Shown piece after piece: positions 9,706-19,195 of a stretch of 64,000 nt of DNA. The stretch spans positions 17,190 to 81,189 of the forward strand of contig DATKAN010000025.1 in assembly GCA_035498035.1 (NCBI GenBank), given 5' to 3'. This DNA is from Nitrospiria bacterium (GTDB taxonomy: Bacteria > Nitrospirota > Nitrospiria > JACQBZ01). Numbering within the stretch: position 1 is the first letter of the stretch; each line of letters starts with the position of its first letter. The notes under the pieces were generated by a model. The model was not told where the DNA came from. It worked only from the letters and a program-made list of their open reading frames with translations, and ran no database searches. The position numbers were made by a program, and so were the translations under genes.

Positions 9706-10749
9706 ATGGAAAACGGGCGACAGGAAATGGCCCTGAAAGGCCGTTGTGTCACTTTCCTGGTGGGTCAGACCGGATTGAATCTGGAGGCCACGGCGATCGT
9801 CGAAAGCCGCGTGCTCAAAAGTTCTCCCAACTATCCCGACGTCATTCCGAAGCAGGCGATCATCCGCACACAAAAGGGCGAGATCCGCGACCGGGAAGCC
9901 ACTTTTGTCGTCAAGGCCTATGTCCCCGACACCGTCATCGTCGAAGCCACGTTCGAGTTTCAGGATCTCGCGGCGGAGCCGCTGTTCGAGCTCAACCGGG
10001 ACCTGCTGCTGGAGAGCCGTCGCTTCCTGAACGAGTTTCAGTGCAACCCGGAATTCGACGAAGAATACAGCGTCTACTGCATTTCGGATTATCAAGGAGA
10101 TCCCGAGATGTTCCTGGCGCTTCACGGCGAAAAGATCGCCGCGTTGCTTAAAAAGGAGCAGATCCTCCTGGACGAGGAAGAAATCAAAGCGACCCTCCGG
10201 TCGAATCTCAAATACGGCAAGGACGATCTGACGGTGGTAGACTGGGACGGGGCCTTCATTTTCGACCCTCATGGAGACTTTGATGCGAATATCGAACTGT
10301 TCGAAATCACCAACCTTCAGCTCTTGAAATCCCGCATGCTGGACGAGGAGCTGGATGGACGGCTGAAAACCACCCTCCAGTTGCTCCGCCGGCGTCCGGA
10401 ACAGTCCTGGCTCCGGTCCAAGCAGGTACGGTCCGTGCTGCGGGAGATCATCCAGACCCGGACCACCTCCATCCTGGAATCCCAGGCGATCGAACACAGC
10501 ATCAAATTGATCGGGGACTGGTACACGGCCCGGCTGTATGCCCTCATCTCGAAAAAATTCCACCTCGAGGAGTGGCGGAAGAATATCAACGAGAAACTGG
10601 ACATCCTCGAAGACGTCTACACCATGGCCGCCGAAAACTTCTCCATTTCATTCAACACCACGCTGGAGTTCATCCTGATCGGCGGCTGGTTCATCCTCCA
10701 AATCGGCTGGTTTGCGCTGCTCTTCATCGAATTCTATCTCGCAAGATAA
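9706..10749 (+). CDS. Hypothetical protein with C-terminal transmembrane anchor
   Basis: Balanced composition. C-terminal hydrophobic helix (LEFILIGGWFILQIGWFALLFIEFYL). No family recognised. Confidence 0.45.
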   Translation: MENGRQEMALKGRCVTFLVGQTGLNLEATAIVESRVLKSSPNYPDVIPKQAIIRTQKGEIRDREATFVVKAYVPDTVIVEATFEFQDLAAEPLFELNRDLLLESRRFLNEFQCNPEFDEEYSVYCISDYQGDPEMFLALHGEKIAALLKKEQILLDEEEIKATLRSNLKYGKDDLTVVDWDGAFIFDPHGDFDANIELFEITNLQLLKSRMLDEELDGRLKTTLQLLRRRPEQSWLRSKQVRSVLREIIQTRTTSILESQAIEHSIKLIGDWYTARLYALISKKFHLEEWRKNINEKLDILEDVYTMAAENFSISFNTTLEFILIGGWFILQIGWFALLFIEFYLAR

Positions 10750-10782
10750 TCCGCCCGGCCTTTTTTCGATTCACAAATCTGC

Positions 10783-10831
10783 TTGACAAACGGGCCGCCG
10801 CTCCTGTATTTTGAGAATCAGAATCAATTTC
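10783..10831 (+). promoter_or_regulatory. Putative sigma70 promoter (TTGACA-18-TATTTT) with overlapping Fur-box-like site upstream of fur
   Basis: TTGACA at 10783-10788, TATTTT at 10807-10812. GAGAATCAGAATCAATTTC (10813-10831) matches the GATAATGATAATCATTATC Fur box at about 13/19 positions. Confidence 0.35.
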
Positions 10832-10853
10832 AACGAACACCCGGGGGTGTGAA

Positions 10854-11330
10854 ATGACCAAGGCACTGCCCTTGAACAAAGAAGTCGCTCGATTAAAAGA
10901 CTACCTGGCCGAGAAGCAACTCAAACTGACTCAACAGCGGGAAACGATCCTGGAAGCCTTTCTCAAGGTGGATCATATCACGGCCGAAGAACTGCATCGT
11001 CAGATCTCCCGGAAGGGACGCCAACGAATGGGCCTGGCCACCATCTACCGGACCTTGAACCTTTTGTGCGAAGTCGGCATCGGACAGCAACGGCACTTTG
11101 ACGATACCCGGACGATTTACGACAATGTGATCAACAAAAAGCACCACGATCACCTGATCTGTGATAAATGCGACAAGATTATCGAGTTTGAATCTCCCGC
11201 CATCGAACGGCTTCAGGAAAAAATGGCCGCCCGGCACGGCTTCACACTCAGCCATCACCGGCTGGAGCTCTTCGGACATTGCATCGATTGGGAAAAGTGT
11301 CGGGATTGGCAGAAGGCGGCCCCCCGTTGA
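10854..11330 (+). CDS. fur: Fur-family metalloregulator
   Basis: Fur DNA-binding helix and HHDHLIC...C..C metal-site motifs. Confidence 0.8.
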   Translation: MTKALPLNKEVARLKDYLAEKQLKLTQQRETILEAFLKVDHITAEELHRQISRKGRQRMGLATIYRTLNLLCEVGIGQQRHFDDTRTIYDNVINKKHHDHLICDKCDKIIEFESPAIERLQEKMAARHGFTLSHHRLELFGHCIDWEKCRDWQKAAPR

Positions 11331-11398
11331 TCATCCCCCAAAAACCCACTGACATGAAACGACGAACCGTTTTTCCCGATACGAACCGGCGAACAAGG

Positions 11399-11737
11399 AT
11401 GAAGAGGGGCGCGGCCTTGCATTTTGGTCTCCTACTCGGGCTCGGGCTATGGCTCCTCGGCACGGCGGACGCGGAGGATGGGATCCGCATTCTCATCAAG
11501 GATCATCGCTTCTCCCCCTCCGAGGTCAGGGTGAAGGCCAATACGAAGGTGAAATTACTCGTGAGCAATGAGGATGAAACCGCCGAGGAATTCGAAAGCT
11601 TCAGTCTCAACCGGGAAAGGGTCGTGCGCGGCGGCCAATCCATCACGATCTTCCTTCCCCCGCTTAAACCGGGCAGCTATGACTTCTTCGGGGACTTCCA
11701 TCCGGACACGGCCCAGGGAAAGGTCATTGCCGAGTAG
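11399..11737 (+). CDS. Secreted cupredoxin-like domain protein (Cupredoxin_1/EfeO-N/FtrB-like, no type-1 Cu ligands)
   Basis: Signal peptide MKRGAALHFGLLLGLGLWLLGTADA. Cupredoxin_1-type strand pattern (IKDHRFSPSEVRVKANTKVKLLVSNED). Immediately upstream of the FTR1 permease. Confidence 0.55.
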   Translation: MKRGAALHFGLLLGLGLWLLGTADAEDGIRILIKDHRFSPSEVRVKANTKVKLLVSNEDETAEEFESFSLNRERVVRGGQSITIFLPPLKPGSYDFFGDFHPDTAQGKVIAE

Positions 11738-11808
11738 AGGCCCGCGTGCAGAGTCTCAGGAAATCTTCCCAGCGAGACCCTATAAATAATAGATAGGAAA
11801 CCCTCGGA

Positions 11809-12630
11809 ATGCTTGGAACGTTTATCATTACATGGAGAGAAACCATCGAGGCCGCCCTGATCGTGGGTATTTTGTTAACCTACCTGAACAAGATCGGCCA
11901 GTCCAAACAGTTTCGCTTTGTGTATTGGGGCGCGCTCTGGGCGGTTTTGGCCAGCCTGATCTTCGCGGGAATGTCCGATTACCTGTCCGTGTTCTTCAAG
12001 GACATCGGCGAGGATATATTTGAAGCGGCCATCCTGTTCCTCGCGACCGGCGTTTTGACTCACATGGTGATCTGGATGCATCACAACGCCCGGGAGATCA
12101 AAGGGGCGCTTCAACACGAGGCGGAACTGGCGATTTCCAAGAACCGGCTGTGGGCCCTGGCCACGTTGGCTTTTGTGGGTGTGTTTCGTGAAGGCATGGA
12201 GACGGTCCTTTTTCTCTGGGGTTTCTTCTTGCAAGGAGGAGGGATAACTTCGGTCGCCCCTCCGGTGATGGGCGGACTTCTGGGGGTCGGGCTCGGCGTC
12301 CTGATGACCTGGCTCTTTTTCAAGGGCTTCGGCCACCTCGACCTGAGACCGTTTTTCCGGGTGAGCGGGTTCATCCTCCTTTTTATGGCGGCCGGCATGC
12401 TCTCCTCGGGAATCGGAAAGCTGGTCTCGGTGGGACTGGTTCCTCCGTTGATGGAACCGATCTGGAACACTTCCTGGTTTTTGAGCGAGCGTTCGCTTTT
12501 GGGGTCTCTGGTCGCGGGTATTTTTGGGTATCGTTCCAGCCCTTCGCTGATCCAGGCCCTCTTCTATCTCTTTTACTTTCCCATCACCCTGATTTGGCTC
12601 CGGCGGCAACGCCACGATCTGGCACAGTAA
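11809..12630 (+). CDS. FTR1/EfeU-family high-affinity iron permease
   Basis: Two REXXE motifs (RETIE, REGME) in TM helices; about 7 TM segments. Confidence 0.8.
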   Translation: MLGTFIITWRETIEAALIVGILLTYLNKIGQSKQFRFVYWGALWAVLASLIFAGMSDYLSVFFKDIGEDIFEAAILFLATGVLTHMVIWMHHNAREIKGALQHEAELAISKNRLWALATLAFVGVFREGMETVLFLWGFFLQGGGITSVAPPVMGGLLGVGLGVLMTWLFFKGFGHLDLRPFFRVSGFILLFMAAGMLSSGIGKLVSVGLVPPLMEPIWNTSWFLSERSLLGSLVAGIFGYRSSPSLIQALFYLFYFPITLIWLRRQRHDLAQ

Positions 12631-12638
12631 GGATGGAC

Positions 12639-12833
12639 ATGGAAACCAACGGGAAACACAAAGCGGCCTCGGATCAACCGAACTCACATGAAGTTCGGTG
12701 CGAATGCGGCAGTCTGGTCGCAAAGCTGGTGGGCTCCGCGATCGAACTTAAATGCAGGCGCTGTAAACGACTGGCGCTGATCCCGCTGTCTAATTTCAAT
12801 GGAGGATCGAAAACAGTAACGGTTCGACTGTAA
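12639..12833 (+). CDS. Com-like zinc-finger small protein (Mu Com family)
   Basis: VRCECGSLVAKLVGSAIELKCRRCKRLALIP parallels the Mu Com RCxxC...IEIRCPRCKR zinc finger. SD AAGGA 6 nt upstream. Confidence 0.5.
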   Translation: METNGKHKAASDQPNSHEVRCECGSLVAKLVGSAIELKCRRCKRLALIPLSNFNGGSKTVTVRL

Positions 12834-12865
12834 TCCCCGGAAGCGGCCAGCGGTTTCAACCCAGA

Positions 12866-12911
12866 GCCCACGTCCATGTCACGCCGAAGGACGCGGGCTT
12901 TTTTATTTTGG
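12866..12911 (+). terminator. Rho-independent terminator candidate after the Com-like gene
   Basis: Stem CCCACGTCC/GGACGCGGG (one mismatch) followed by CTTTTTTTATTTT. Confidence 0.45.
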
Positions 12912-13023
12912 ATTGACACCGTTTATTTAAGCGTAAACGATCAAGAACCACCTACGGCCCGAGGTCAATCGAGAACCCAGAGCCCCAACCACCCCGAAGA
13001 CGGGGCTCATAAGGAGGTTTTCG

Positions 13024-14202
13024 ATGAAACAACGATTGATTCTTCTTTCGATGGTGGTTTGTCTGGGTGTGGGTCTCGGCCGGGATGAAATGGCCGCGGC
13101 CGAATCCGAAGAAGGCACAAAGATCAGTTTTTACGGCTACGGCGAAATGCACTACAACAGCCCGTTTGTGAATTCAGACCGCGGAGGGTTTCCATCGACG
13201 GATGACCGGACAACCATGGACTTCCATCGGTTGGTTCTCGGCTGGGGCGTGCCGTTCAACGACCGGATCCGATTTCAGGGTGAGGTGGAATGGGAACACG
13301 CCGGGCAGGAAATAGAACTGGAGTTCGGCTACCTGGAGTTCGACCTGACCCCCGGACTCCAGGCTCGAGTGGGCAGCCTACTCATGCCGGTCGGGGATCT
13401 CAACGAGTTTCATGAACCCACGCAGTTCTACAGTGTCGAGCGTCCGTATGTTCAGCGTTTCCTGATTCCAACCACTTGGCAGGAAGGCGGCGCGGGGCTG
13501 GTCGGCAGCCTGTCCTCTGGACTCAACGCGCGGGTTTACTATGTGACGGGGTTGGACGCGAGTCAATTCAGTGCCAATAACGGACTCGGCGAGATCGTCC
13601 CGTTGTCCGAGGATCTAAAAGGGGCGGATCAGATGGCGGTCGTGGGCCGGATCGAATATGTCGGGCTGCCCGGGATTCAAGTGGGAGGTTCTTACTATAC
13701 CGGAGGGGCAAGCCAGCGAACCGAGAACTCCTGCATCGCGCCGTGCTCCTCGGTCGTGCCGAAAGGCGTCGCCGTGTCCCTTTGGGATCTGGACCTTCAT
13801 GCCCGCCGTGGGCCTTTCGAGGCGCGCGGAACCTACATCATGACCCATGTCAGCGGAACCGAGGACCTTTCGACCGCGCTGGATCAAACCATTGGAGAGG
13901 AGATGACCGGCGGAATGGCCGAGATCGCCCTTCACACCTTGCCCCTCCTCCTTCCGGGCACCGAACAGGACCTCGTCTTATTCGGTCGGATCGAGCATTT
14001 TAACACCCAGGCCAAGGTTGCGGGCGGGGCCGCGGCCGCGACCGGCCCGGCCGATGAGGCCAACGACCGCCGGGTGATCACCTACGGCATCACCTACTTT
14101 CCCCACCGAGATGTCGCGCTGAAGATCGACCAGGAGCGCTGGCGCGATGGGGCCGATCAAACCGGGCATCGCACAAACCTAGGGATGGCGTTCATGTTCT
14201 AA
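13024..14202 (+). CDS. Outer-membrane beta-barrel porin (OprO/P-like pattern)
   Basis: Signal peptide, alternating beta-strand composition, C-terminal Phe (...MAFMF). AAGGAGG SD. Confidence 0.6.
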   Translation: MKQRLILLSMVVCLGVGLGRDEMAAAESEEGTKISFYGYGEMHYNSPFVNSDRGGFPSTDDRTTMDFHRLVLGWGVPFNDRIRFQGEVEWEHAGQEIELEFGYLEFDLTPGLQARVGSLLMPVGDLNEFHEPTQFYSVERPYVQRFLIPTTWQEGGAGLVGSLSSGLNARVYYVTGLDASQFSANNGLGEIVPLSEDLKGADQMAVVGRIEYVGLPGIQVGGSYYTGGASQRTENSCIAPCSSVVPKGVAVSLWDLDLHARRGPFEARGTYIMTHVSGTEDLSTALDQTIGEEMTGGMAEIALHTLPLLLPGTEQDLVLFGRIEHFNTQAKVAGGAAAATGPADEANDRRVITYGITYFPHRDVALKIDQERWRDGADQTGHRTNLGMAFMF

Positions 14203-14204
14203 CG

Positions 14205-15716
14205 ATGCTGCAATTGAAACGGATTCATATGGGAACCCCTTGGGAGATCAGGGCCCATGGAACTCCCCCCGATGAGCGTCGGGCGGTCGAGGCGGCCGAT
14301 CAGGAGATCGAGAGGGTTGAATCGCTCCTGTCCCGCTTCCGACCCGGCAGCGAAATCTCCCGGATCAACCGCTGCAACGGCCCGTGCAGAATAAGGATCA
14401 ATCCCGAGGTCGGCCGGGTCATCGCCGAGGCGTTGCGGTATGCCGTCTTGACGGAAGGGGCCTTCGATCCGACGGCCGGAGCGCTGAGCCGGCTGTGGGG
14501 ATTCGGACCGGAAGGGCCGCGTACGGTTCCGCCCGACGAGGAACGGATTCAGGCGACGATCGAGCGTCTCGGTTATCGGCAGGTCTGTATCGACGAAGTC
14601 CGTTTTGAATTGACTCTCCGTCGACCCGGGATGGAAATCGACCTGGGCGGGATGGGAAAAGGTTATGCGGTGGACCGGGCCGTCGCCGTCCTGAAAGAAA
14701 ACGGGATCAACCGTGCATGGGTCAGCTGCGGGAGCACGGCCTTTGCCTTGGGCCCTTCAAAACATCACGATGCCTGGAGGGTCGGAATCCGGGATCCGAG
14801 CGGTTCCGGCAGGATCATCCAGACCGTTCAAATACGTGATCGGGCCATTGCAACCTCCGGGGCCTATGAACAGTTCTTCAACTACGAAGGAAGACGGTAC
14901 GGCCACATCTGCGATCCGCGCACAGGCTACCCTGCAGCCGGATCGGCCGGCGTCACCGTGATCGCGCCCACGGCGACCGAGGCCGACGCGTTATCAACGG
15001 CCGCTTTTGTCTTGGGAGCCCGATCCGGAAGGGCCCTGCTGGATTTGCAGGAGGAAGTAGAAGCCTGCTTCTTTGAAGTCCGGGCCGGGAGCTTTTCGAT
15101 TAAGACCACCCGGAATTGGAAACGGGTTTGCTCGGGAGGATTGAACCGGCGACGGTTTCTCGTCGGCTTGATGGCCGCGGCGGGACTTCTGGTTCTGAAA
15201 CCGCCCGCCGTGTCCGGAACGGTCTACCTGACGGACGAAGAAGCCCTTCGCCTGATGATGCCGGAAGGCCGGGAGTTTAAGAAGGAAACGGTGACCCTCA
15301 CCGATCCACAGGCGGCCGAAATCAGCCAGCGGCTGGAAAAACGGATCGAGGAGAATGTTTACACGTTCTATCGAGGGACCGGTTCGGATTCCGCGGTGAC
15401 GATCGGGTACGCGGTCGTCCTCAACGTCATCGGAAAGGAGAGGCCGATCACCTTCATGGTCGGGGTCGATCCTCAAGGCCGGCTCATCGGGATCGAGGTC
15501 CTGACCTACCGTGAATCGCGCGGCTCGGAGATCCGGTCCAAACGTTTCATCAATCAATTTATCGGAAAGACCCTGGACGCGCCTTTGAAGCTGGGCCGGG
15601 ACATTGACGGCATCAGCGGCGCGACTCTTTCCTCCCGCTCCACGGCCTACGCGGTGAAAAAAGCCCTGGCCCTCGCTCACGTTGTTTATGGCATCCACGC
15701 GGAGAGTTCCCCATGA
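14205..15716 (+). CDS. ApbE-family FAD:protein FMN transferase fused via a Tat-like internal anchor to a C-terminal FMN-binding domain
   Basis: ApbE motifs GGMGKGYAVD and HICDPRTG. Then NRRRFLVGLMAAAGLLVL. Then an FMN_bind domain with the flavinylation motif DGISGATLSS. Single continuous ORF. Confidence 0.75.
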   Translation: MLQLKRIHMGTPWEIRAHGTPPDERRAVEAADQEIERVESLLSRFRPGSEISRINRCNGPCRIRINPEVGRVIAEALRYAVLTEGAFDPTAGALSRLWGFGPEGPRTVPPDEERIQATIERLGYRQVCIDEVRFELTLRRPGMEIDLGGMGKGYAVDRAVAVLKENGINRAWVSCGSTAFALGPSKHHDAWRVGIRDPSGSGRIIQTVQIRDRAIATSGAYEQFFNYEGRRYGHICDPRTGYPAAGSAGVTVIAPTATEADALSTAAFVLGARSGRALLDLQEEVEACFFEVRAGSFSIKTTRNWKRVCSGGLNRRRFLVGLMAAAGLLVLKPPAVSGTVYLTDEEALRLMMPEGREFKKETVTLTDPQAAEISQRLEKRIEENVYTFYRGTGSDSAVTIGYAVVLNVIGKERPITFMVGVDPQGRLIGIEVLTYRESRGSEIRSKRFINQFIGKTLDAPLKLGRDIDGISGATLSSRSTAYAVKKALALAHVVYGIHAESSP

Positions 15717-16210
15717 AGGATTTCAGCAAAAAGGGATTCCGGATCGCGAACAGTTCTCCGGAGATCAAAATCATCTATACCGGATTTCTGATCTTCGCGT
15801 TCATCGGCTATTTTACGATTGCGTTGCTTGGATGTCTCCGGGTCGGGCCGAATTACAACGCCATCGTGTCCCATTACCGGGGCTCCGACCTCGATGAAGA
15901 GGCCTTCGGCCAGCCCATCGGCCAGATGTTGGAAGACGCCCATTCTCACGCCTTTATCGAGGGACTGATCCTGCTGGTCCTGACGCATCTGTTCATCGGC
16001 GCCGCCGTCCCGAAACGATGGAAGTTCGCCGTGGTCCTGCTGGCCTTCGGCAGCACGCTGGCCGATCTGGCCAGCCCCTGGCTGATCAAATATGTCGCCC
16101 CCGGTTTTGCCCATCTTCAGATGGCCAGCTGGGCCGGCATGGAAACGAGCGCGCTGCTTCTGATCGGGTGGCCGCTGTATGAAATGTGGTTCAAAGGAGA
16201 AGGAGAATGA
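15713..16210 (+). CDS. 4-TM integral membrane protein, His-rich (uncharacterised)
   Basis: Four hydrophobic helices with several conserved-looking His (SHAFIEG, THLFIG, FAHLQ). ATGA overlaps on both sides (operonic). Confidence 0.5.
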   Translation: MKDFSKKGFRIANSSPEIKIIYTGFLIFAFIGYFTIALLGCLRVGPNYNAIVSHYRGSDLDEEAFGQPIGQMLEDAHSHAFIEGLILLVLTHLFIGAAVPKRWKFAVVLLAFGSTLADLASPWLIKYVAPGFAHLQMASWAGMETSALLLIGWPLYEMWFKGEGE

Positions 16211-16632
16211 AGCGAATCGGATGGATCTGGGTCGCGGGACTGATTCTGATCGGGGCCGGGCCGGCATGGCCGGACGCGAAAAAATCCGACGGAGACCTCC
16301 GGCGAATCACGGTCCGGCTTCAGGAATATCATTTCGAACCGGCCGAGATCCGGCTGAAGGTCGGCGAGGAGGTTGAGCTCACCCTGATCAATGACGGAAC
16401 GGTCATGCACGAGTTTATTACCGAGGCGCTGCAGACGCTGACCGTGGATGTGGAAAACAACGGGATTATCACCGGCACGCTCGGCGTGACCGAGCTTGAG
16501 ATTCCTCCCAAGGCCCGCGCCGTGCTTCGTTTTACCCCGGAGAAACCGGGAGAGTTTTCTATCGCCTGCCATGCCAAAGCACCGAAGGATCACTATCAAG
16601 AAGGAATGAGAGGGCGTCTTCAGATCCGGTGA
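16207..16632 (+). CDS. Periplasmic type-1 copper cupredoxin (Cupredoxin_1 family)
   Basis: Signal/anchor MKRIGWIWVAGLILIGAGPAWP. Ligand set H (VMHEF), C-H (IACHAK), M (EGM). Confidence 0.65.
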   Translation: MKRIGWIWVAGLILIGAGPAWPDAKKSDGDLRRITVRLQEYHFEPAEIRLKVGEEVELTLINDGTVMHEFITEALQTLTVDVENNGIITGTLGVTELEIPPKARAVLRFTPEKPGEFSIACHAKAPKDHYQEGMRGRLQIR

Positions 16633-16723
16633 GCTTCGATCCAGTCTTGGAGAATTTTTGCGAAGATTGACAAACGGACTGAAGTTTGCCAATGTAGCGC
16701 GAATCTGTTCATTGGGACCCCGG

Positions 16724-17137
16724 ATGAAATCGTTCTTGAAAAAATTGGCGGCCGTTGTGCTCGCATTGGGGTGGGCACTGCTCGGATCAGGTTTGGCCCA
16801 GCAACCCTGGCAAACGGTCGAGATTAAGGCGGAAGAGTACAGCTTTACTCCCCGTCGGATTGAGGCCAAGGCGAATCGACCCCTCGAACTGGTGATCGAG
16901 AACGAAGGCCACGAACCTCATCAGTTCCGGTCCGAGCTTCTCAAGGATCAGATGGTCGAGGTCGAAATCGGTCAAAACACGGTCCGGGGCCGCAATATCG
17001 AGGTGGTCGACGTCGCCCCCGGCAAGACGGCCCGGATCAAACTCCTTTCCCCGCCCGCGGGAGAGTTTGACTTCCAGTGCCGCATTCCCAGTCATCATGG
17101 AATGGACGGGATGATCCTGATCGAGGCTGATCCATAA
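16724..17137 (+). CDS. Periplasmic type-1 copper cupredoxin (Cupredoxin_1 family), paralog
   Basis: Signal peptide MKSFLKKLAAVVLALGWALLGSGLA. Ligands H (GHEPHQF), C (FQCRIP), HH, M (GMDGM). Confidence 0.65.
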   Translation: MKSFLKKLAAVVLALGWALLGSGLAQQPWQTVEIKAEEYSFTPRRIEAKANRPLELVIENEGHEPHQFRSELLKDQMVEVEIGQNTVRGRNIEVVDVAPGKTARIKLLSPPAGEFDFQCRIPSHHGMDGMILIEADP

Positions 17138-17231
17138 ATAAACCAGCTCGCAAAGCGTGCGGGATGGGGAGGCTCCATCCGGCTTTGCCGATGGAGGGGG
17201 CGACGCGAGCCCCTATGAAAGGAGAGACCGG

Positions 17232-18008
17232 ATGTTCAGAATGAAGCTTGGCCTCATCCTGGCCGTATGGCTCGTCTTGGCGTTCTCGACCCAAACCCAT
17301 GCGATCGAATTCAAAGTTTATTTCTATTCAACGCCGGGCGAAGGAGAGACGGAGCTCGCCTATTGGTGGACTTATACCGCCAAATCGGAACATTCCTACG
17401 ATTACTTCGGGGAGCTCTTGGACAAACAGGGCCTTCAACAGCATTCGCTGGAGGTCGAATACGGACTGACGGACCACTGGACCATCGGGGGTTACGCCGA
17501 TTTTCAACAACCGAAAGACGGGGATTTCAGATACGTCCAGGCGCGGGCGGTCGTTTCGCGGTATCGCTTTTTTGAGCAGGGCGAGCGCTTTCTCGACGGG
17601 GCGATCGAAGTCGAGTACAACCTTCCCCGCGAGAAGTACAGCGCAAACGAAGAGCTCGAGGCACGGGTTATTCTTGAAAAAGACCTGGGCCAATTCTCCA
17701 TCGTGGTCAATCCAATATTTGAAAAAGACGTCAGCGGACCCGAGGTCGACCAAGGGATGGAATTCCAGTACGCCACGGGTCTGTACTACAGGGCGTCTCC
17801 CCGCCTGACGCCTGGCGTCGAATTCTACGGCGATATGGGTCCGTTGGGCCATCTGGACCCCAAAAGCCAGCAGCAGCATTATATCTTCCCGCGTCTGGGA
17901 CTCAAATTTTCCCGCAGCGTCAATCTGGACATCGGATACGGTTTCGGACTGACCAAGGGCAGCGACGATCAGGTGATCAAAGCCATTTTGGAGTTTGAGT
18001 TCCTATAA
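17232..18008 (+). CDS. Putative outer-membrane beta-barrel protein
   Basis: Signal peptide MFRMKLGLILAVWLVLAFSTQTHA. Alternating aromatic/polar strands. C-terminal ...EFEFL. GGAGAG SD. Confidence 0.5.
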   Translation: MFRMKLGLILAVWLVLAFSTQTHAIEFKVYFYSTPGEGETELAYWWTYTAKSEHSYDYFGELLDKQGLQQHSLEVEYGLTDHWTIGGYADFQQPKDGDFRYVQARAVVSRYRFFEQGERFLDGAIEVEYNLPREKYSANEELEARVILEKDLGQFSIVVNPIFEKDVSGPEVDQGMEFQYATGLYYRASPRLTPGVEFYGDMGPLGHLDPKSQQQHYIFPRLGLKFSRSVNLDIGYGFGLTKGSDDQVIKAILEFEFL

Positions 18009-18013
18009 ATACG

Positions 18014-19195
18014 ATGTCACCGCTCCCCATCCTCGTAATCAAAGCCCATGCCGTTAAGCGATTGAAGACCGGCCATCCCTGGATTTTTTCGAATGAATTG
18101 ACCCGGCTGCCGAAGGAACTGGAACCCGGGCAAGCGGTGGATATCCAAAACCATCGTGGAGAATGGATCGGCCGCGGGTACTTCAACCCCCGATCGCTCA
18201 TCGCGGTCCGGCTCTTGAATCGGGAGCGGACGGAGATCAACGAGGATTTCCTGGAACAAAAAATATCTCAGGCGCAGGCGCTCCGCGGCCAGTGGCTCGG
18301 CGGCGAAGAAGCCTGCCGGGTCGTCTACGGGGAGGCCGACGGCCTCCCGGGCTTGATCATCGACCGATACGGTCCCGTCTGGGTGGTCCAGTTCCTGACC
18401 GCCGGGATGGACCGTTTGACCGAGCCGGTGCTTCGGATCTTGATCAAACGGTTTCGGCCGGCCGCCGTGGTGGCGCGCAACGACACCGCAAGCCGGGCGC
18501 TCGAAGGCCTTGTCCAAGATAAACGGCTTCTCTACGGGGCGCTACCGTCCCCTCTCGTCATACGGAAAAACGACCTTTCGTTTGAGGTGGATGTCTGGGA
18601 AGGGCAGAAGACCGGTTTCTTTCTGGATCAATCCGAGAATTACCGTTGCCTCGATGGGATGGTACGAGGCGCACGCGTGCTGGATGCCTTCTGTTACACC
18701 GGCGCATGGGGACTCCATGCCGCACGGTACGGCGCAGGAGAGGTGATCGGTCTGGACAGTTCGGAAAAGGCCGTCTCTGAGGCTCAGGCCAACGCCCGAC
18801 GAAACGGCCTGGCCTCCGCCAGCACGTATCTTCAAGAGGACGTTTTTGACGGGCTCCGTCGGCTATACAAAGCGAAGAAGCGCTTCGATTGTGTCATCCT
18901 TGATCCGCCGGCCTTCGCCAAAAGCCGTCAAAAAGTCAAGGAAGCCGTGCGTGGATACAAAGAAATCAACCGGCTGGCGATGATGCTGCTGTCGCCGGGC
19001 GGGGTTCTGGTAACCTGTTCCTGTTCGCATTTGATCGGCCAATCCTTGTTTCGAGAGATTCTCGTTTCGGCCGCCGCCGATGCCGAACGATCCTTTTATA
19101 TCACGGCCTGGCGCACCCAGGGCCGGGACCATCCGATCGATCTGGCCATTCCGGAGACGCAATATTTGAAATGCGTTTTCCTTCAAGCCAAATAA
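18014..19195 (+). CDS. rlmI: 23S rRNA m5C1962 methyltransferase RlmI (PUA + SAM MTase)
   Basis: N-terminal PUA-like region. SAM-binding and catalytic motifs (VLDAFCYTGAWG, ILDPPAF). Confidence 0.8.
   Translation: MSPLPILVIKAHAVKRLKTGHPWIFSNELTRLPKELEPGQAVDIQNHRGEWIGRGYFNPRSLIAVRLLNRERTEINEDFLEQKISQAQALRGQWLGGEEACRVVYGEADGLPGLIIDRYGPVWVVQFLTAGMDRLTEPVLRILIKRFRPAAVVARNDTASRALEGLVQDKRLLYGALPSPLVIRKNDLSFEVDVWEGQKTGFFLDQSENYRCLDGMVRGARVLDAFCYTGAWGLHAARYGAGEVIGLDSSEKAVSEAQANARRNGLASASTYLQEDVFDGLRRLYKAKKRFDCVILDPPAFAKSRQKVKEAVRGYKEINRLAMMLLSPGGVLVTCSCSHLIGQSLFREILVSAAADAERSFYITAWRTQGRDHPIDLAIPETQYLKCVFLQAK

What the first reader, a model, noticed from the sequence alone, without database searches (positions are those of the whole stretch)
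15713..17137. Tandem type-1 copper cupredoxin paralogs behind a His-rich 4-TM protein
Both small secreted proteins have a complete H...C...H...M ligand set in Cupredoxin_1-like scaffolds (IACHAK...HYQEGM; FQCRIPSHHGMDGM). The preceding 165-aa membrane protein has four helices carrying several His residues (possible di-heme b or metal site). With the FMN_bind protein upstream these genes are translationally coupled through ATGA overlaps at 15713 and 16207, which suggests a stoichiometric complex.
Basis: inference. Interest (0 to 1): 0.55.

Follow-up and report, generated by a model that had tools for sequence, protein, structure and literature searches.

The report
Two blue-copper proteins, flavin iron module
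Two genuine blue-copper electron-carrier genes lie in an iron-regulated cluster of a Nitrospirota bacterium: one belongs to an apparently undescribed flavin module made of an outer-membrane pore, a flavoprotein and a small membrane protein, the other to an iron permease, which suggests a new electron route in bacterial iron uptake.

Summary
Two secreted Cupredoxin_1 proteins (16207-16632, 16724-17137) carry type-1 copper ligand sets that are invariant in 29 and 27 orthologues. The 165-aa protein is a confident four-helix membrane protein, and both ATGA overlaps exist.

The interpretation needs correcting in three ways.

- The cupredoxins are not tandem duplicates. They are 27% identical and belong to two modules. 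Cup2 is translationally coupled to the FTR1 permease in four related contigs that lack the flavin genes. Cup1 belongs to a module inserted between FTR1 and Cup2: porin-like protein, ApbE-FMN_bind, four-helix protein, Cup1.
- The four-helix protein is PF27139 (Aq_1264_TM), with no match to DUF4405 or other cytochrome-b families. Only H77, H79 and, less so, H92 are conserved, all on helix 2. No solved structure resembles the model.
- In 80 distant loci this protein sits with FMN_bind (60), a porin-like protein (48) and ApbE (27), never with a cupredoxin. The core unit is therefore an undescribed flavinylation-associated triad, and the cupredoxin is a Nitrospirota addition.

Best reading (inferred, confidence about 0.45): a Fur-controlled envelope electron relay from membrane to FMN to blue copper, serving FtrB/FTR1 iron uptake. 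This is a new variant of a known kind.

The parts
10783..10831 (+). Best sigma-70-like promoter (TTGACA-18-TATTTT), overlapped by a Fur-box-like hexamer array GAGAATCAGAATCAATTTC (10813-10831), upstream of fur
   Evidence: Promoter scan. The array is the closest match to the 19-nt E. coli Fur box in 10600-18200, with 5 mismatches. Weak evidence: there are no matches at 3 mismatches or fewer.
10854..11330 (+). Fur-family regulator
   Evidence: Translation. Orthologues in L017, L018, L105 and L106 carry PF01475.
11399..11737 (+). Cup0: Cys-less, FtrB/EfeO-type (Cup-II) cupredoxin-like periplasmic protein
   Evidence: Matches PDB 8VUK (Brucella FtrB) at E 1e-11. E84, E86, E93 and H121 equivalents are kept; D118 is replaced by G (residue roles from PMC11966278).
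11809..12630 (+). FTR1/EfeU/FtrC-type iron permease with two REXXE motifs (RETIE, REGME)
   Evidence: Pfam FTR1 E 1.4e-45. NCBIfam EfeU 211 bits, below the equivalog cutoff of 255. Motifs read from the translation.
12633..12833 (+). Small Zn-ribbon protein (CxC...CxxC), conserved upstream of the porin-like gene in Nitrospirota loci
   Evidence: tblastn hits in L003, L005, L013, L014, L015 and L020. Only weak Pfam similarity (Zn_ribbon_Com E 0.058).
12845..12984 (+). Leader region with two copies of the conserved motif GGCCNGNGGU-N-ACCCAGAGCC (12845-12868, 12956-12984). The first overlaps a terminator-like hairpin (12866-12898 plus a U-run to 12909). The second precedes a hairpin next to the Shine-Dalgarno sequence.
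   Evidence: 2 matches against 0.00 expected. The same motif lies 5' of the porin-like genes in L003, L005, L013-L015, L020, L041, L080 and L101. Fold z-scores are -2.3 to -5.9. No Rfam match.
13024..14202 (+). Porin-like outer-membrane protein (signal peptide, C-terminal ...AFMF), first gene of the flavin module
   Evidence: No Pfam, NCBIfam or PDB sequence match. 12 orthologues share many invariant His/Glu/Asp. Relatives occur in 48 of 80 distant 4TM loci; one relative matches Porin_O_P. No CxxCH and no [ST]GA[ST] motif.
14205..15716 (+). ApbE (FAD:protein FMN transferase) domain without a signal peptide, then a twin-arginine motif plus hydrophobic anchor (NRRRFLVGLMAAAGLLVL), then an RnfG/NqrC-like FMN_bind domain with the flavinylation motif SGAT (residues 471-474)
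   Evidence: Pfam ApbE E 2.2e-85 and FMN_bind E 5.1e-12. RnfG-like by NCBIfam. No room for a signal peptide in 13 orthologous loci. The RR motif is conserved. SGAT motif.
15713..16210 (+). Four-helix inner-membrane protein, Pfam PF27139 (Aq_1264_TM). Conserved E74-x2-H77-x-H79 lies at the periplasmic end of helix 2 and H92 near its cytoplasmic end.
   Evidence: PF27139 is the precomputed label on the identical protein and all 82 hits. Conservation. AF2 pLDDT 88.5. No PDB structural neighbour.
16207..16632 (+). Cup1: secreted type-1 copper cupredoxin (H68, C121, H129, M134), last gene of the flavin module in Nitrospirota
   Evidence: AF2 pLDDT 85. The closest solved structure is AcoP of Acidithiobacillus ferrooxidans (Foldseek E 6e-10, TM 0.64-0.71).
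16724..17137 (+). Cup2: secreted type-1 copper cupredoxin (H66, C119, H124/H125, M127). Its orthologues are translationally coupled to FTR1 elsewhere.
   Evidence: Best PDB sequence match is the copper-bound Bacillus anthracis Cupredoxin_1, 4HCF.
17232..18008 (+). Small outer-membrane beta-barrel-like protein that travels with Cup2
   Evidence: Weak Pfam Phenol_MetA_deg (E 7e-4, below cutoff). Orthologues follow Cup2 in L005, L006, L017, L018, L020, L105 and L106.

Best explanation
The finding sits where two Fur-associated envelope redox modules of an uncultured Nitrospiria bacterium have been joined.

Module B is an Ftr-type iron uptake operon: fur, an FtrB-like Cys-less cupredoxin, the FTR1 permease, the blue-copper protein Cup2 and a small outer-membrane protein.

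Module A is inserted between FTR1 and Cup2. It holds a Zn-ribbon gene, a porin-like outer-membrane protein, ApbE-FMN_bind, the four-helix protein Aq_1264_TM and the blue-copper protein Cup1.

Proposed mechanism for module A (inferred):
1. The cytoplasmic ApbE domain attaches FMN to the threonine of the SGAT motif of its own C-terminal FMN_bind domain.
2. That domain is placed in the periplasm through the internal twin-arginine signal-anchor.
3. The four-helix protein, probably as a dimer using the conserved His residues of helix 2 near the periplasmic face, connects the membrane electron pool (quinol) to the bound FMN.
4. FMN passes single electrons downhill to the type-1 copper of Cup1.
5. 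Cup1 or the flavin itself reduces a metal substrate, most likely Fe(III), that enters through the porin-like protein.

Proposed mechanism for module B (inferred): the resulting Fe(II) is taken up by FtrB/FTR1. The oxidation step this permease family is thought to require uses Cup2 as the one-electron acceptor, because this FtrB lacks the D118 needed for copper binding in Brucella FtrB.

Shown here: gene identities, ligand conservation, module boundaries, and family-wide linkage of FMN_bind, porin and 4TM. Inferred: direction of electron flow, the substrate, the cofactor of the 4TM protein, and the roles of Cup1 and Cup2.
For: Identities
- ApbE, FMN_bind, FTR1 and Cupredoxin_1 by Pfam.
- PF27139 for the 4TM protein.
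- FtrB homology to 8VUK at E 1e-11.

Type-1 ligands
- Invariant in orthologues of both cupredoxins.
- The Cup1 model is closest to the electron-transfer cupredoxin AcoP.

Module structure
- Fur-FtrB-FTR1-Cup2-OMP-RlmI is contiguous, with an FTR1/Cup2 overlap, in L017, L018, L105 and L106. These share the window's flanking genes.
- Porin-ApbE/FMN_bind-4TM-Cup1 occurs without FTR1 in L001, L003, L007-L015.

Family-wide linkage
- In 80 loci holding 4TM relatives about 30% identical, FMN_bind is present in 60, a porin-like protein in 48, ApbE in 27 and a cupredoxin in 0.
- The commonest gene order is Porin-FMN_bind-4TM.
- The 4TM domain is fused to ApbE in P0139 and P0210.

Dimer hint
- The tandem-duplicated P0188 keeps H77 only in repeat 1 and H79 plus H92 only in repeat 2.

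Iron link
- Fur lies in or next to the module in the window, L005, L012, L013, L016 and L020.
- An FbpABC-like transporter lies upstream in L020, and bacterioferritin with Bfd in L003.
- A Fur-box-like site lies at the fur promoter, and a GAGAATGATTCTC palindrome lies before the L001 porin gene.

Precedent
- 260 P19/FTR1 clusters contain an FMN-binding gene proposed to act in iron redox chemistry (PMC8238504).
- The D118A mutant of Brucella FtrB cannot bind Cu2+, and some FtrB clusters carry G at that position (PMC11966278).
Against: - No experiment supports any step.
- Outside Nitrospirota, the neighbours of the porin-FMN_bind-4TM core show no enrichment of iron genes. The core module's substrate may therefore not be iron.
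- Five module loci follow a two-component system rather than Fur.
- No canonical E. coli Fur box was found within 3 mismatches.
- Typical type-1 copper potentials are high, which makes Cup1 a poor reductant for most Fe(III) chelates (general knowledge of cupredoxin potentials).
- The 4TM protein has no demonstrated cofactor, and H92 is conserved in only about 80% of representatives.
- A cytoplasmic ApbE acting before Tat export is unprecedented in the papers read.
- A Cup2-type cupredoxin directly follows the 4TM gene in L021. The clean split of Cup1 to module A and Cup2 to module B is therefore not absolute.
Confidence: 0.45

Rival explanations
1. Electron-sink model. The flow runs the other way. 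Fe(II) is oxidised at FtrB/FTR1, and the electron passes from Cup2 to Cup1 to FMN to the 4TM protein to quinone. The flavin module would then replace FtrD, the polyferredoxin proposed as electron sink in FtrABCD.
For: - The module is inserted exactly between FTR1 and Cup2.
- No FtrD-like gene is present among the operon's ORFs.
- The FtrABCD model posits a membrane electron acceptor (PMC11966278).
- Cup2-type and Cup1-type cupredoxins both occur next to the 4TM gene.
Against: - Electron transfer from type-1 copper (usually above +180 mV) to covalently bound FMN (about -200 mV in the Nqr/Rnf subunits) would be strongly uphill. This rests on general knowledge, not a measurement made here.
- The core module exists in many genomes without FTR1 or any cupredoxin.
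Confidence: 0.12
2. Copper handling. The cupredoxins are copper-binding or resistance proteins of the CopI type. The flavin/4TM pair reduces Cu(II) or moves copper across the inner membrane, for example to metallate periplasmic copper proteins.
For: - Weak NCBIfam hits to CopI (38 and 36 bits).
- The HxH motif and a conserved Glu lie at the periplasmic face of the 4TM protein.
- L001 has HMA, NikR_C and ZnuA/ABC-3 metal genes nearby.
Against: - The CopI scores are far below the cutoffs of 280 and 200 and cover only the N-terminal strands.
- The invariant residues are exactly the electron-transfer type-1 set.
- Cup1's closest structures are electron carriers and type-1 domains of redox enzymes.
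- Fur and iron transporters, not copper regulators, are the recurrent neighbours.
- The 4TM protein is not rich in Met or Cys.
Confidence: 0.1
3. Respiratory or extracellular electron transfer. The porin-like protein, flavoprotein and 4TM protein form a trans-envelope conduit, a flavin analogue of porin-cytochrome complexes. It would serve energy metabolism, either metal reduction or Fe(II) oxidation, with the cupredoxins acting like rusticyanin or AcoP.
For: - A porin-like protein is the commonest partner family-wide, in 48 of 80 loci, in a fixed gene order.
- The Cup1 model is closest to AcoP of the Acidithiobacillus iron-oxidation chain.
- Flavinylated proteins carry extracellular electron transfer in Listeria (PMC8238504, PMC9973259).
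Against: - No cytochrome c, terminal oxidase or NADH dehydrogenase lies in the operon.
- The porin-like protein has no CxxCH and no flavinylation motif.
- At 392 aa, its barrel is smaller than MtrB-type conduits.
- Fur linkage points to assimilation rather than respiration.
Confidence: 0.13
4. First reader's model. One stoichiometric complex is made of the FMN_bind protein, a di-haem cytochrome-b-like 4TM protein and two paralogous blue-copper proteins.
For: - ATGA overlaps link ApbE/FMN_bind, the 4TM gene and Cup1.
- His residues lie near both ends of helix 2, 13-15 residues apart.
- Small homodimeric membrane cytochromes associated with flavinylation are known, namely FezC and DUF4405 (PMC11334425).
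Against: - Cup2 is separated from Cup1 by a 91-nt gap and belongs with FTR1 in other genomes.
- Cup1 and Cup2 are 27% identical.
- There are not four conserved His per subunit.
- There is no sequence or structural match to known cytochromes b.
Confidence: 0.1

Closest known systems
FtrABCD iron uptake system (Brucella, Bordetella, Burkholderia) and EfeUOB
   Same: - An FTR1-family permease with REXXE motifs sits next to a Cys-less FtrB/EfeO-type cupredoxin (8VUK homologue, E 1e-11).
- A Fur-family regulator gene lies adjacent, consistent with low-iron control.
   Different: - No P19 (FtrA), polyferredoxin (FtrD) or DyP peroxidase (EfeB) was found among the operon's ORFs.
- The FtrB homologue has G at the D118 copper-ligand position.
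- A bona fide type-1 copper cupredoxin (Cup2) is translationally coupled to the permease in relatives, and a small outer-membrane protein follows.
Flavinylation-associated extracytosolic electron-transfer systems (Meheust et al. 2021, PMC8238504; Huang et al. 2024, PMC11334425), including P19/FTR1 clusters with an FMN-binding gene
   Same: - ApbE plus an FMN_bind substrate with an [S/T]GA[S/T] motif sits next to a dedicated membrane protein.
- The cluster co-localises with an FTR1 iron transporter.
   Different: - The membrane partner is PF27139 (Aq_1264_TM). It is none of the classes named in those two papers: NapH-like, MsrQ-like, PepSY-like, DsbD, Nqr/Rnf-like, DUF4405 or FezC.
- A porin-like outer-membrane protein is a regular partner.
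- Blue-copper proteins are attached; the term 'cupredoxin' occurs 0 times in the eLife paper.
- ApbE lacks a signal peptide and is fused upstream of an internal twin-arginine anchor.
NosR/NosX(ApbE)-NosZ of nitrous oxide reduction
   Same: A membrane-anchored periplasmic FMN_bind domain, flavinylated by an ApbE-family enzyme, is encoded with a cupredoxin-fold copper centre. This is a precedent for electron transfer from FMN to a cupredoxin. The N2O reductase CuA domain is among Cup1's structural neighbours, and there is a weak NCBIfam L-NosZ hit.
   Different: - No NosZ catalytic domain and no NosDFYL.
- The membrane part is a separate 4-helix protein without ferredoxin domains.
- The copper site is mononuclear type-1, not binuclear CuA.
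AcoP (Acidithiobacillus ferrooxidans) and other single-domain type-1 cupredoxins (auracyanin, Bacillus anthracis Cupredoxin_1 4HCF)
   Same: The cupredoxin fold and a His/Cys/His/Met site are shared. AcoP is the best structural match to the Cup1 model (E 6e-10, 22% identity). 4HCF is the best sequence match to Cup2.
   Different: - Sequence identity is low.
- Cup1's ligand loop is C-x7-H-x4-M, like that of copper nitrite reductase.
- The genomic partners are flavin and iron-uptake genes, not cytochrome c oxidase.
Yeast reductive iron assimilation (Fre reductases, Fet3 multicopper oxidase, Ftr1 permease)
   Same: The logic is the same: a transmembrane flavin-dependent reductase supplies Fe(II) to an Ftr1-family permease that works with a copper oxidase. 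This is a functional analogy from established knowledge of that pathway.
   Different: - No homology except Ftr1/FTR1.
- The flavin is covalently bound outside the membrane.
- The copper proteins are single type-1 domains with no trinuclear O2-reducing cluster, so the final electron acceptor is unknown.

Membership tests
Type-1 (blue) copper cupredoxin, Pfam Cupredoxin_1 (PF13473) | Profile match above the curated cutoff | tested here: met
   Cup1 41.6 bits and Cup2 57.2 bits against a cutoff of 27.
Type-1 (blue) copper cupredoxin, Pfam Cupredoxin_1 (PF13473) | His...Cys...His...Met ligand set present and conserved | tested here: met
   Cup1 H68/C121/H129/M134 are invariant in 29 sequences. 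Cup2 H66/C119/H124(H125)/M127 are invariant in 27 sequences.
Type-1 (blue) copper cupredoxin, Pfam Cupredoxin_1 (PF13473) | Greek-key beta-sandwich fold | tested here: met
   The Cup1 AF2 model is all-beta with pLDDT above 90 over residues 30-141. It has 660 PDB matches at E <= 0.001, led by cupredoxins. Cup2 was not modelled.
Type-1 (blue) copper cupredoxin, Pfam Cupredoxin_1 (PF13473) | Binds copper with a ~600 nm absorption band and narrow-hyperfine EPR signal | not testable with these tools
   Needs expressed protein.
PF27139 Aq_1264_TM | Profile match | tested here: met
   PF27139.1 is the precomputed Pfam label on the identical protein P0001 and on all 82 homologues. The model is absent from the local Pfam copy, so hmmscan gave no hit.
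Flavinylation-associated membrane cytochromes b (DUF4405, MsrQ-like, PepSY-like, FezC) | Conserved axial His pairs on different transmembrane helices (four per haem pair) | tested here: not met
   Only H77, H79 and H92 are conserved, and all lie on helix 2.
Flavinylation-associated membrane cytochromes b (DUF4405, MsrQ-like, PepSY-like, FezC) | Sequence or structural similarity to a known member | tested here: not met
   No Pfam hit at E <= 0.1. Best Foldseek match in the PDB has E 0.34 and TM below 0.5, and is a MAPEG enzyme, not a cytochrome.
Flavinylation-associated membrane cytochromes b (DUF4405, MsrQ-like, PepSY-like, FezC) | Binds haem b | not testable with these tools
   An inter-subunit bis-His site is not excluded. 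The tandem-duplicated relative P0188 shows complementary His loss between its repeats.
ApbE-dependent flavinylation system | ApbE domain and FMN_bind substrate with an [S/T]GA[S/T] motif | tested here: met
   ApbE E 2.2e-85 and FMN_bind E 5.1e-12. SGAT at residues 471-474.
ApbE-dependent flavinylation system | ApbE exported (signal peptide or lipobox), as in extracytosolic systems | tested here: not met
   The ApbE profile starts at residue 9, and a stop codon lies one codon upstream of the start. The same holds in 13 orthologous loci. Cytosolic ApbEs are known (PMC12052999).
FtrABCD | FtrC (FTR1 permease) and FtrB (Cup-II cupredoxin) | tested here: met
FtrABCD | FtrA (P19) and FtrD (polyferredoxin) in the operon | tested here: not met
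   None of the ORFs between 10854 and 18008 matches P19 or a ferredoxin family. The rest of the genome was not searched.
FtrABCD | FtrB copper ligands D118 and H121 | tested here: inconclusive
   H121 is kept and D118 is replaced by Gly, as reported for some FtrB clusters.

The most novel reading that the evidence does not exclude
The porin-like protein, FMN_bind and Aq_1264_TM form a previously unrecognised class of flavinylation-dependent, envelope-spanning redox module that is widespread across phyla. Members occur in Nitrospirota, Nitrospinota, Thermodesulfobacteriota, Myxococcota and, going only by the Pfam family's name, Aquificota. It uses a minimal four-helix membrane subunit of new fold and cofactor chemistry. 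In Nitrospirota it has been extended with blue-copper proteins and wired to an Ftr-type permease. This would be the first periplasmic flavin-to-type-1-copper chain, and a natural case in which a true type-1 cupredoxin supplies the long-sought oxidase partner of bacterial FTR1. In addition, ApbE would act in the cytoplasm and its substrate domain would be exported already flavinylated through an internal twin-arginine signal. The module would be controlled by a new leader RNA motif.
Probability: 0.3. Interest if true: 0.75.

Novelty: new variant of a known kind. Interest (0 to 1): 0.6.

Why it matters
- How electrons are handled in bacterial FTR1-type iron uptake is unresolved. The papers read state that the ferrous oxidase of FtrABCD is still unknown (PMC11966278).
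- Here a genuine type-1 copper protein is translationally coupled to the permease in several genomes, next to an FtrB that lacks a key copper ligand. That gives a concrete, testable candidate for the missing redox partner.
- Separately, the linkage of FMN_bind, a porin-like protein and the uncharacterised PF27139 membrane protein across distant lineages adds a candidate class to the known flavinylation-associated membrane systems. It is a small, tractable one, with about 165 aa and three conserved His.
- If the flavin-to-copper relay is real, it extends the known chemistry of extracytosolic flavoproteins to blue-copper partners.

Tried and rejected
Readings considered and rejected
- Di-haem site within one 4TM subunit: only three conserved His, all on one helix.
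- DUF4405, MsrQ or cytochrome-b membership: no profile hit and no structural neighbour.
- Tandem duplication of the cupredoxins: 27% identity and different partners.
- Cyc2-like porin-cytochrome or DUF3570-like flavinylated barrel: the porin-like protein has no CxxCH and no [ST]GA[ST].
- The Zn-ribbon protein as obligatory partner of the leader motif: the motif occurs in L041, L080 and L101 without a Zn-ribbon ORF upstream.
- Iron-gene enrichment around distant family members: not seen among 113 neighbouring ORFs.

Searches that found nothing
- Canonical Fur box: no match within 3 mismatches in the window. Only a 5-mismatch site at the fur promoter.
- Rfam: nothing in 10600-18200 at E <= 1.
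- Literature: no paper for 'aq_1264', and none combining FMN-binding domain, ApbE, porin and cupredoxin in a relevant way.

- The 67-sequence family alignment was too diverse for a locus search. A 14-sequence subset worked.

Full report
**What is at the coordinates**

The window comes from an uncultured Nitrospiria bacterium. The 165-aa protein is 100% identical to a 'MAG TPA: hypothetical protein [Nitrospiria bacterium]' record.

On the + strand the ORFs run head to tail:

| Gene | Coordinates |
|---|---|
| Fur | 10854-11330 |
| Cup0 (Cys-less cupredoxin-like protein) | 11399-11737 |
| FTR1 permease | 11809-12630 |
| Zn-ribbon protein (66 aa) | 12633-12833 |
| Porin-like protein (392 aa) | 13024-14202 |
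| ApbE-FMN_bind fusion (503 aa) | 14205-15716 |
| 4TM protein (165 aa) | 15713-16210 |
| Cup1 | 16207-16632 |
| Cup2 | 16724-17137 |
| Outer-membrane-like protein (258 aa) | 17232-18008 |
| RlmI-type methyltransferase | 18014-19195 |

**The two cupredoxins**

- Both match Pfam Cupredoxin_1 above the curated cutoff.
- Cup1: in 29 orthologues at 44-72% identity, H68, C121, H129 and M134 are invariant, while the His next to the Cys is variable. The C-x7-H-x4-M spacing equals that of the type-1 loop of Geobacillus copper nitrite reductase in the HMMER alignment.
- Cup2: in 27 orthologues, H66, C119, H124, H125 and M127 are invariant.
- Cup2's best PDB sequence match is the copper-bound Bacillus anthracis Cupredoxin_1, 4HCF. 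It aligns His to H66 and Cys...Met to the C-terminal loop.
- An AlphaFold2 model of Cup1 has pLDDT above 90 across the beta-sandwich. It is closest to AcoP, the cupredoxin of the Acidithiobacillus ferrooxidans iron-oxidation chain (Foldseek E 6e-10, TM 0.64-0.71). Next come type-1 domains of nitrite reductases, 4HCF, auracyanin and the CuA domains of N2O reductase.
- Both have N-terminal signal peptides (read from the sequence).

**They are not tandem paralogues**

Cup1 and Cup2 are 27% identical and form separate orthologous groups.

- In four related Nitrospirota contigs (L017, L018, L105, L106) the order is polyprenyl synthase | MJ0711_N | Fur | Cys-less cupredoxin | FTR1 | Cup2 | ~255-aa outer-membrane protein | RlmI. 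The flanks match the window, the FTR1 stop overlaps the Cup2 start, and there are no flavin genes.
- Conversely, porin-ApbE/FMN_bind-4TM-Cup1 occurs in a dozen Nitrospirota loci without FTR1, Cup0 or Cup2.
- In the window and in L005, the five-gene block from the Zn-ribbon gene to Cup1 lies between FTR1 and Cup2. The simplest reading is an insertion that joined two modules.
- The separation is not absolute. L020 has Fur-FbpABC-like transporter-Zn-ribbon-porin-FMN_bind-4TM-Cup1-Cup2-OMP. In L021 a Cup2-type protein directly follows the 4TM gene. Cup2 may therefore work with both modules.

**The iron module**

- FTR1 has both REXXE motifs (read).
- Cup0 matches the Brucella FtrB crystal structure 8VUK (E 1e-11). 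The proposed iron ligands E84, E86 and E93 and the copper ligand H121 are kept, but Gly replaces D118.
- The FtrB paper reports that D118A abolishes Cu2+ binding, that some FtrB clusters carry G at this position, and that the ferrous oxidase of Ftr systems is still unidentified (PMC11966278).
- No P19, polyferredoxin or DyP peroxidase is among the operon's ORFs.
- A type-1 copper protein coupled to the permease is therefore a plausible one-electron oxidant for Fe(II) in this lineage. This is inference.

**The 4TM protein**

- All 82 close homologues carry the precomputed label PF27139, shown as 'Aq_1264_TM'. The local Pfam and NCBIfam copies give no hit at E <= 0.1.
- A profile search of 1.84 billion representatives finds 645 clusters at E <= 0.001. 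Every named member I looked up is a 'hypothetical protein', from Nitrospinae, Thermodesulfobacteriota and unclassified MAGs. One locus is from Myxococcaceae.
- The AF2 model (pLDDT 88.5) is a four-helix bundle with a short periplasmic helix. Foldseek finds no significant PDB neighbour (best E 0.34).
- By the positive-inside rule (read from the sequence), both termini are cytoplasmic. The signature [LV][LV]E-x-[TS]-H-x-H therefore sits at the periplasmic end of helix 2, and H92 sits near its cytoplasmic end.
- Family-wide, H77 (98/98), H79 (97/98) and G57 (97/98) are essentially invariant, and H92 is present in 79/98. H54 is clade-specific and H134 is not conserved.
- This rules out a classical four-His di-haem site within one subunit. 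It leaves open a haem, metal or quinol site at an oligomer interface.
- One relative, P0188, is a tandem duplication in which repeat 1 keeps only H77 and repeat 2 keeps only H79 and H92. That pattern is expected if the unit is a dimer and H77 of one subunit works with H79 of the other. This is a single case, so the evidence is weak.

**What the 4TM protein travels with**

- A pattern scan of metagenome contigs gave 80 loci whose 4TM is about 30-40% identical to the query set.
- The ORF ending at or within a few bases of the 4TM start matches Pfam FMN_bind in 40 of 76 cases and ApbE in 12.
- The commonest order is Porin-FMN_bind-4TM, in 22 loci, with a further 7 followed by ApbE.
- The 4TM domain is fused through a fifth hydrophobic segment or lipobox to ApbE in P0139 and P0210.
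- The Myxococcaceae locus L016 has Fur...porin-FMN_bind-4TM, with an exported ApbE on the other strand and no cupredoxin.
- Other neighbours of the distant loci show no recurring family.

So the conserved unit is porin-like protein + flavinylated FMN_bind + 4TM (+ApbE), and the cupredoxin is a Nitrospirota addition.

The two comparative papers on flavinylation list these membrane partners: NapH-like, MsrQ-like, PepSY-like, DsbD, Nqr/Rnf-like, DUF4405 and FezC. The eLife paper contains no occurrence of 'cupredoxin' or 'porin'. A text search for aq_1264 found nothing. I therefore treat the 4TM family as an undescribed class of flavinylation-associated membrane protein. The caveat is that only open-access literature was searched.

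**Iron link of the flavin module**

- Fur genes lie in or beside the module in the window, L005, L012, L013, L016 and L020.
- L020 has an FbpABC-like transporter upstream, and L003 has bacterioferritin and Bfd upstream.
- The best promoter-like site in the region lies before fur. It is overlapped by GAGAATCAGAATCAATTTC, the nearest thing to a Fur box in 7.6 kb, with 5 mismatches. L001 has a GAGAATGATTCTC palindrome before its porin gene.
- Against this, five loci place the module after a dCache-PAS histidine kinase and a GerE-type regulator, and no canonical Fur box exists within 3 mismatches.
- Meheust et al. already noted 260 P19/FTR1 clusters with an FMN-binding gene and proposed a role in iron redox chemistry.

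**Most likely mechanism**

Shown: the parts and their linkage. Inferred: everything about electron flow.

1. The ApbE domain flavinylates the SGAT threonine (residues 471-474) of the FMN_bind domain.
2. The 4TM protein links the membrane electron pool to that flavin at the periplasmic face.
3. FMN reduces Cup1, because that direction is thermodynamically downhill.
4. Cup1 or the flavin reduces a metal entering through the porin-like protein, most likely Fe(III).
5. Fe(II) is then handled by FtrB/FTR1, with Cup2 as oxidant.

The reverse direction would make the flavin module an FtrD-like electron sink. It fits the gene order but is energetically unfavourable. Copper handling and respiratory extracellular electron transfer are the other rivals.

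**Verdict**

The type-1 sites and the coupling to FMN_bind hold. 'Tandem paralogues' and 'di-haem b / DUF4405-like' do not.
- The system is a new variant of a known kind, flavinylation-associated extracytosolic redox systems linked to FTR1 iron uptake. Three elements are apparently undescribed: the PF27139 membrane partner with its porin-like companion, the blue-copper extension, and a signal-less ApbE fused ahead of a twin-arginine anchor.
- Interest 0.6.

Noticed in passing
window 14205-15716 (linker about residues 310-340); the same in L001, L003-L005, L007-L015, L019, L021: The ApbE domain has no signal peptide; a stop codon lies one codon upstream of its start, and the same holds in 13 orthologous loci. 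It is joined to the FMN_bind domain by a conserved twin-arginine motif ([NST]-R-R-[RQ]-[FIV]-[LV]) plus a hydrophobic stretch. This looks like an internal Tat-type signal-anchor. It suggests flavinylation in the cytoplasm followed by export of the folded flavoprotein domain. The ApbE review I read does not mention Tat.
   Followed up: partly
window 12845-12868 and 12956-12984; L003 5194-5228, L005 4154-4185 and 4269-4304, L013 4188-4222, L014 4165-4198, L015 4190-4223, L020 6189-6222, L041 2547-2579, L080 2616-2647, L101 535-566: A conserved ~30-nt leader motif, GGCCAGNGGU-(4-9 nt)-ACCCAGAGCC, lies directly 5' of the porin-like gene, including in loci whose 4TM is only about 30% identical. Its 3' end overlaps the 5' arm of a terminator-like hairpin (window site 1, L005, L080, L101) or of a hairpin next to the Shine-Dalgarno sequence (window site 2). 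This resembles an attenuator or riboswitch. It gives 2 hits in the window against 0.00 expected, has no Rfam match, and a covariance model finds it in only 10 of about 100 loci. The paired positions I proposed are invariant, so the fold is untested.
   Followed up: partly
window 12633-12833: A small Zn-ribbon protein (CxC...CxxC) is conserved immediately upstream of the leader motif and porin gene in seven Nitrospirota loci. It has weak similarity to the phage Mu Com translational regulator family (E 0.058). It could be an RNA-binding regulator of the module, but the motif also occurs without it in L041, L080 and L101.
   Followed up: partly
window 13024-14202: The porin-like protein has no Pfam, NCBIfam or PDB sequence match. 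Its N-terminal third nevertheless holds many invariant His/Glu/Asp residues across 12 orthologues: E41, H43, D66, H68, E87, E91, H92, E98, E100, E128, H130, E131 and E139. This hints at a cation- or metal-selective channel or binding site.
   Followed up: no
L019 10739-16387: In this Nitrospirota contig a Mu-like prophage (Mu transposase C-terminal domain, AAA_22, Gam) lies about 2 kb downstream of the 4TM gene. No Cup1 gene is present in the position where orthologous loci have one.
   Followed up: no
P0188 / L023 883-1878: This is a tandem-duplicated Aq_1264_TM protein in a low-GC organism, encoded right after an FMN_bind gene. The conserved His residues are split between the two repeats: H77 in repeat 1, H79 and H92 in repeat 2. 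This suggests that the usual single-domain proteins act as dimers.
   Followed up: partly
L001 9568-16495: In this relative the flavin module sits beside several other metal-homeostasis genes: HMA, a NikR_C regulator, and two ABC-3/ZnuA-type transporters. The regulation and substrate of the module may therefore differ between lineages.
   Followed up: no
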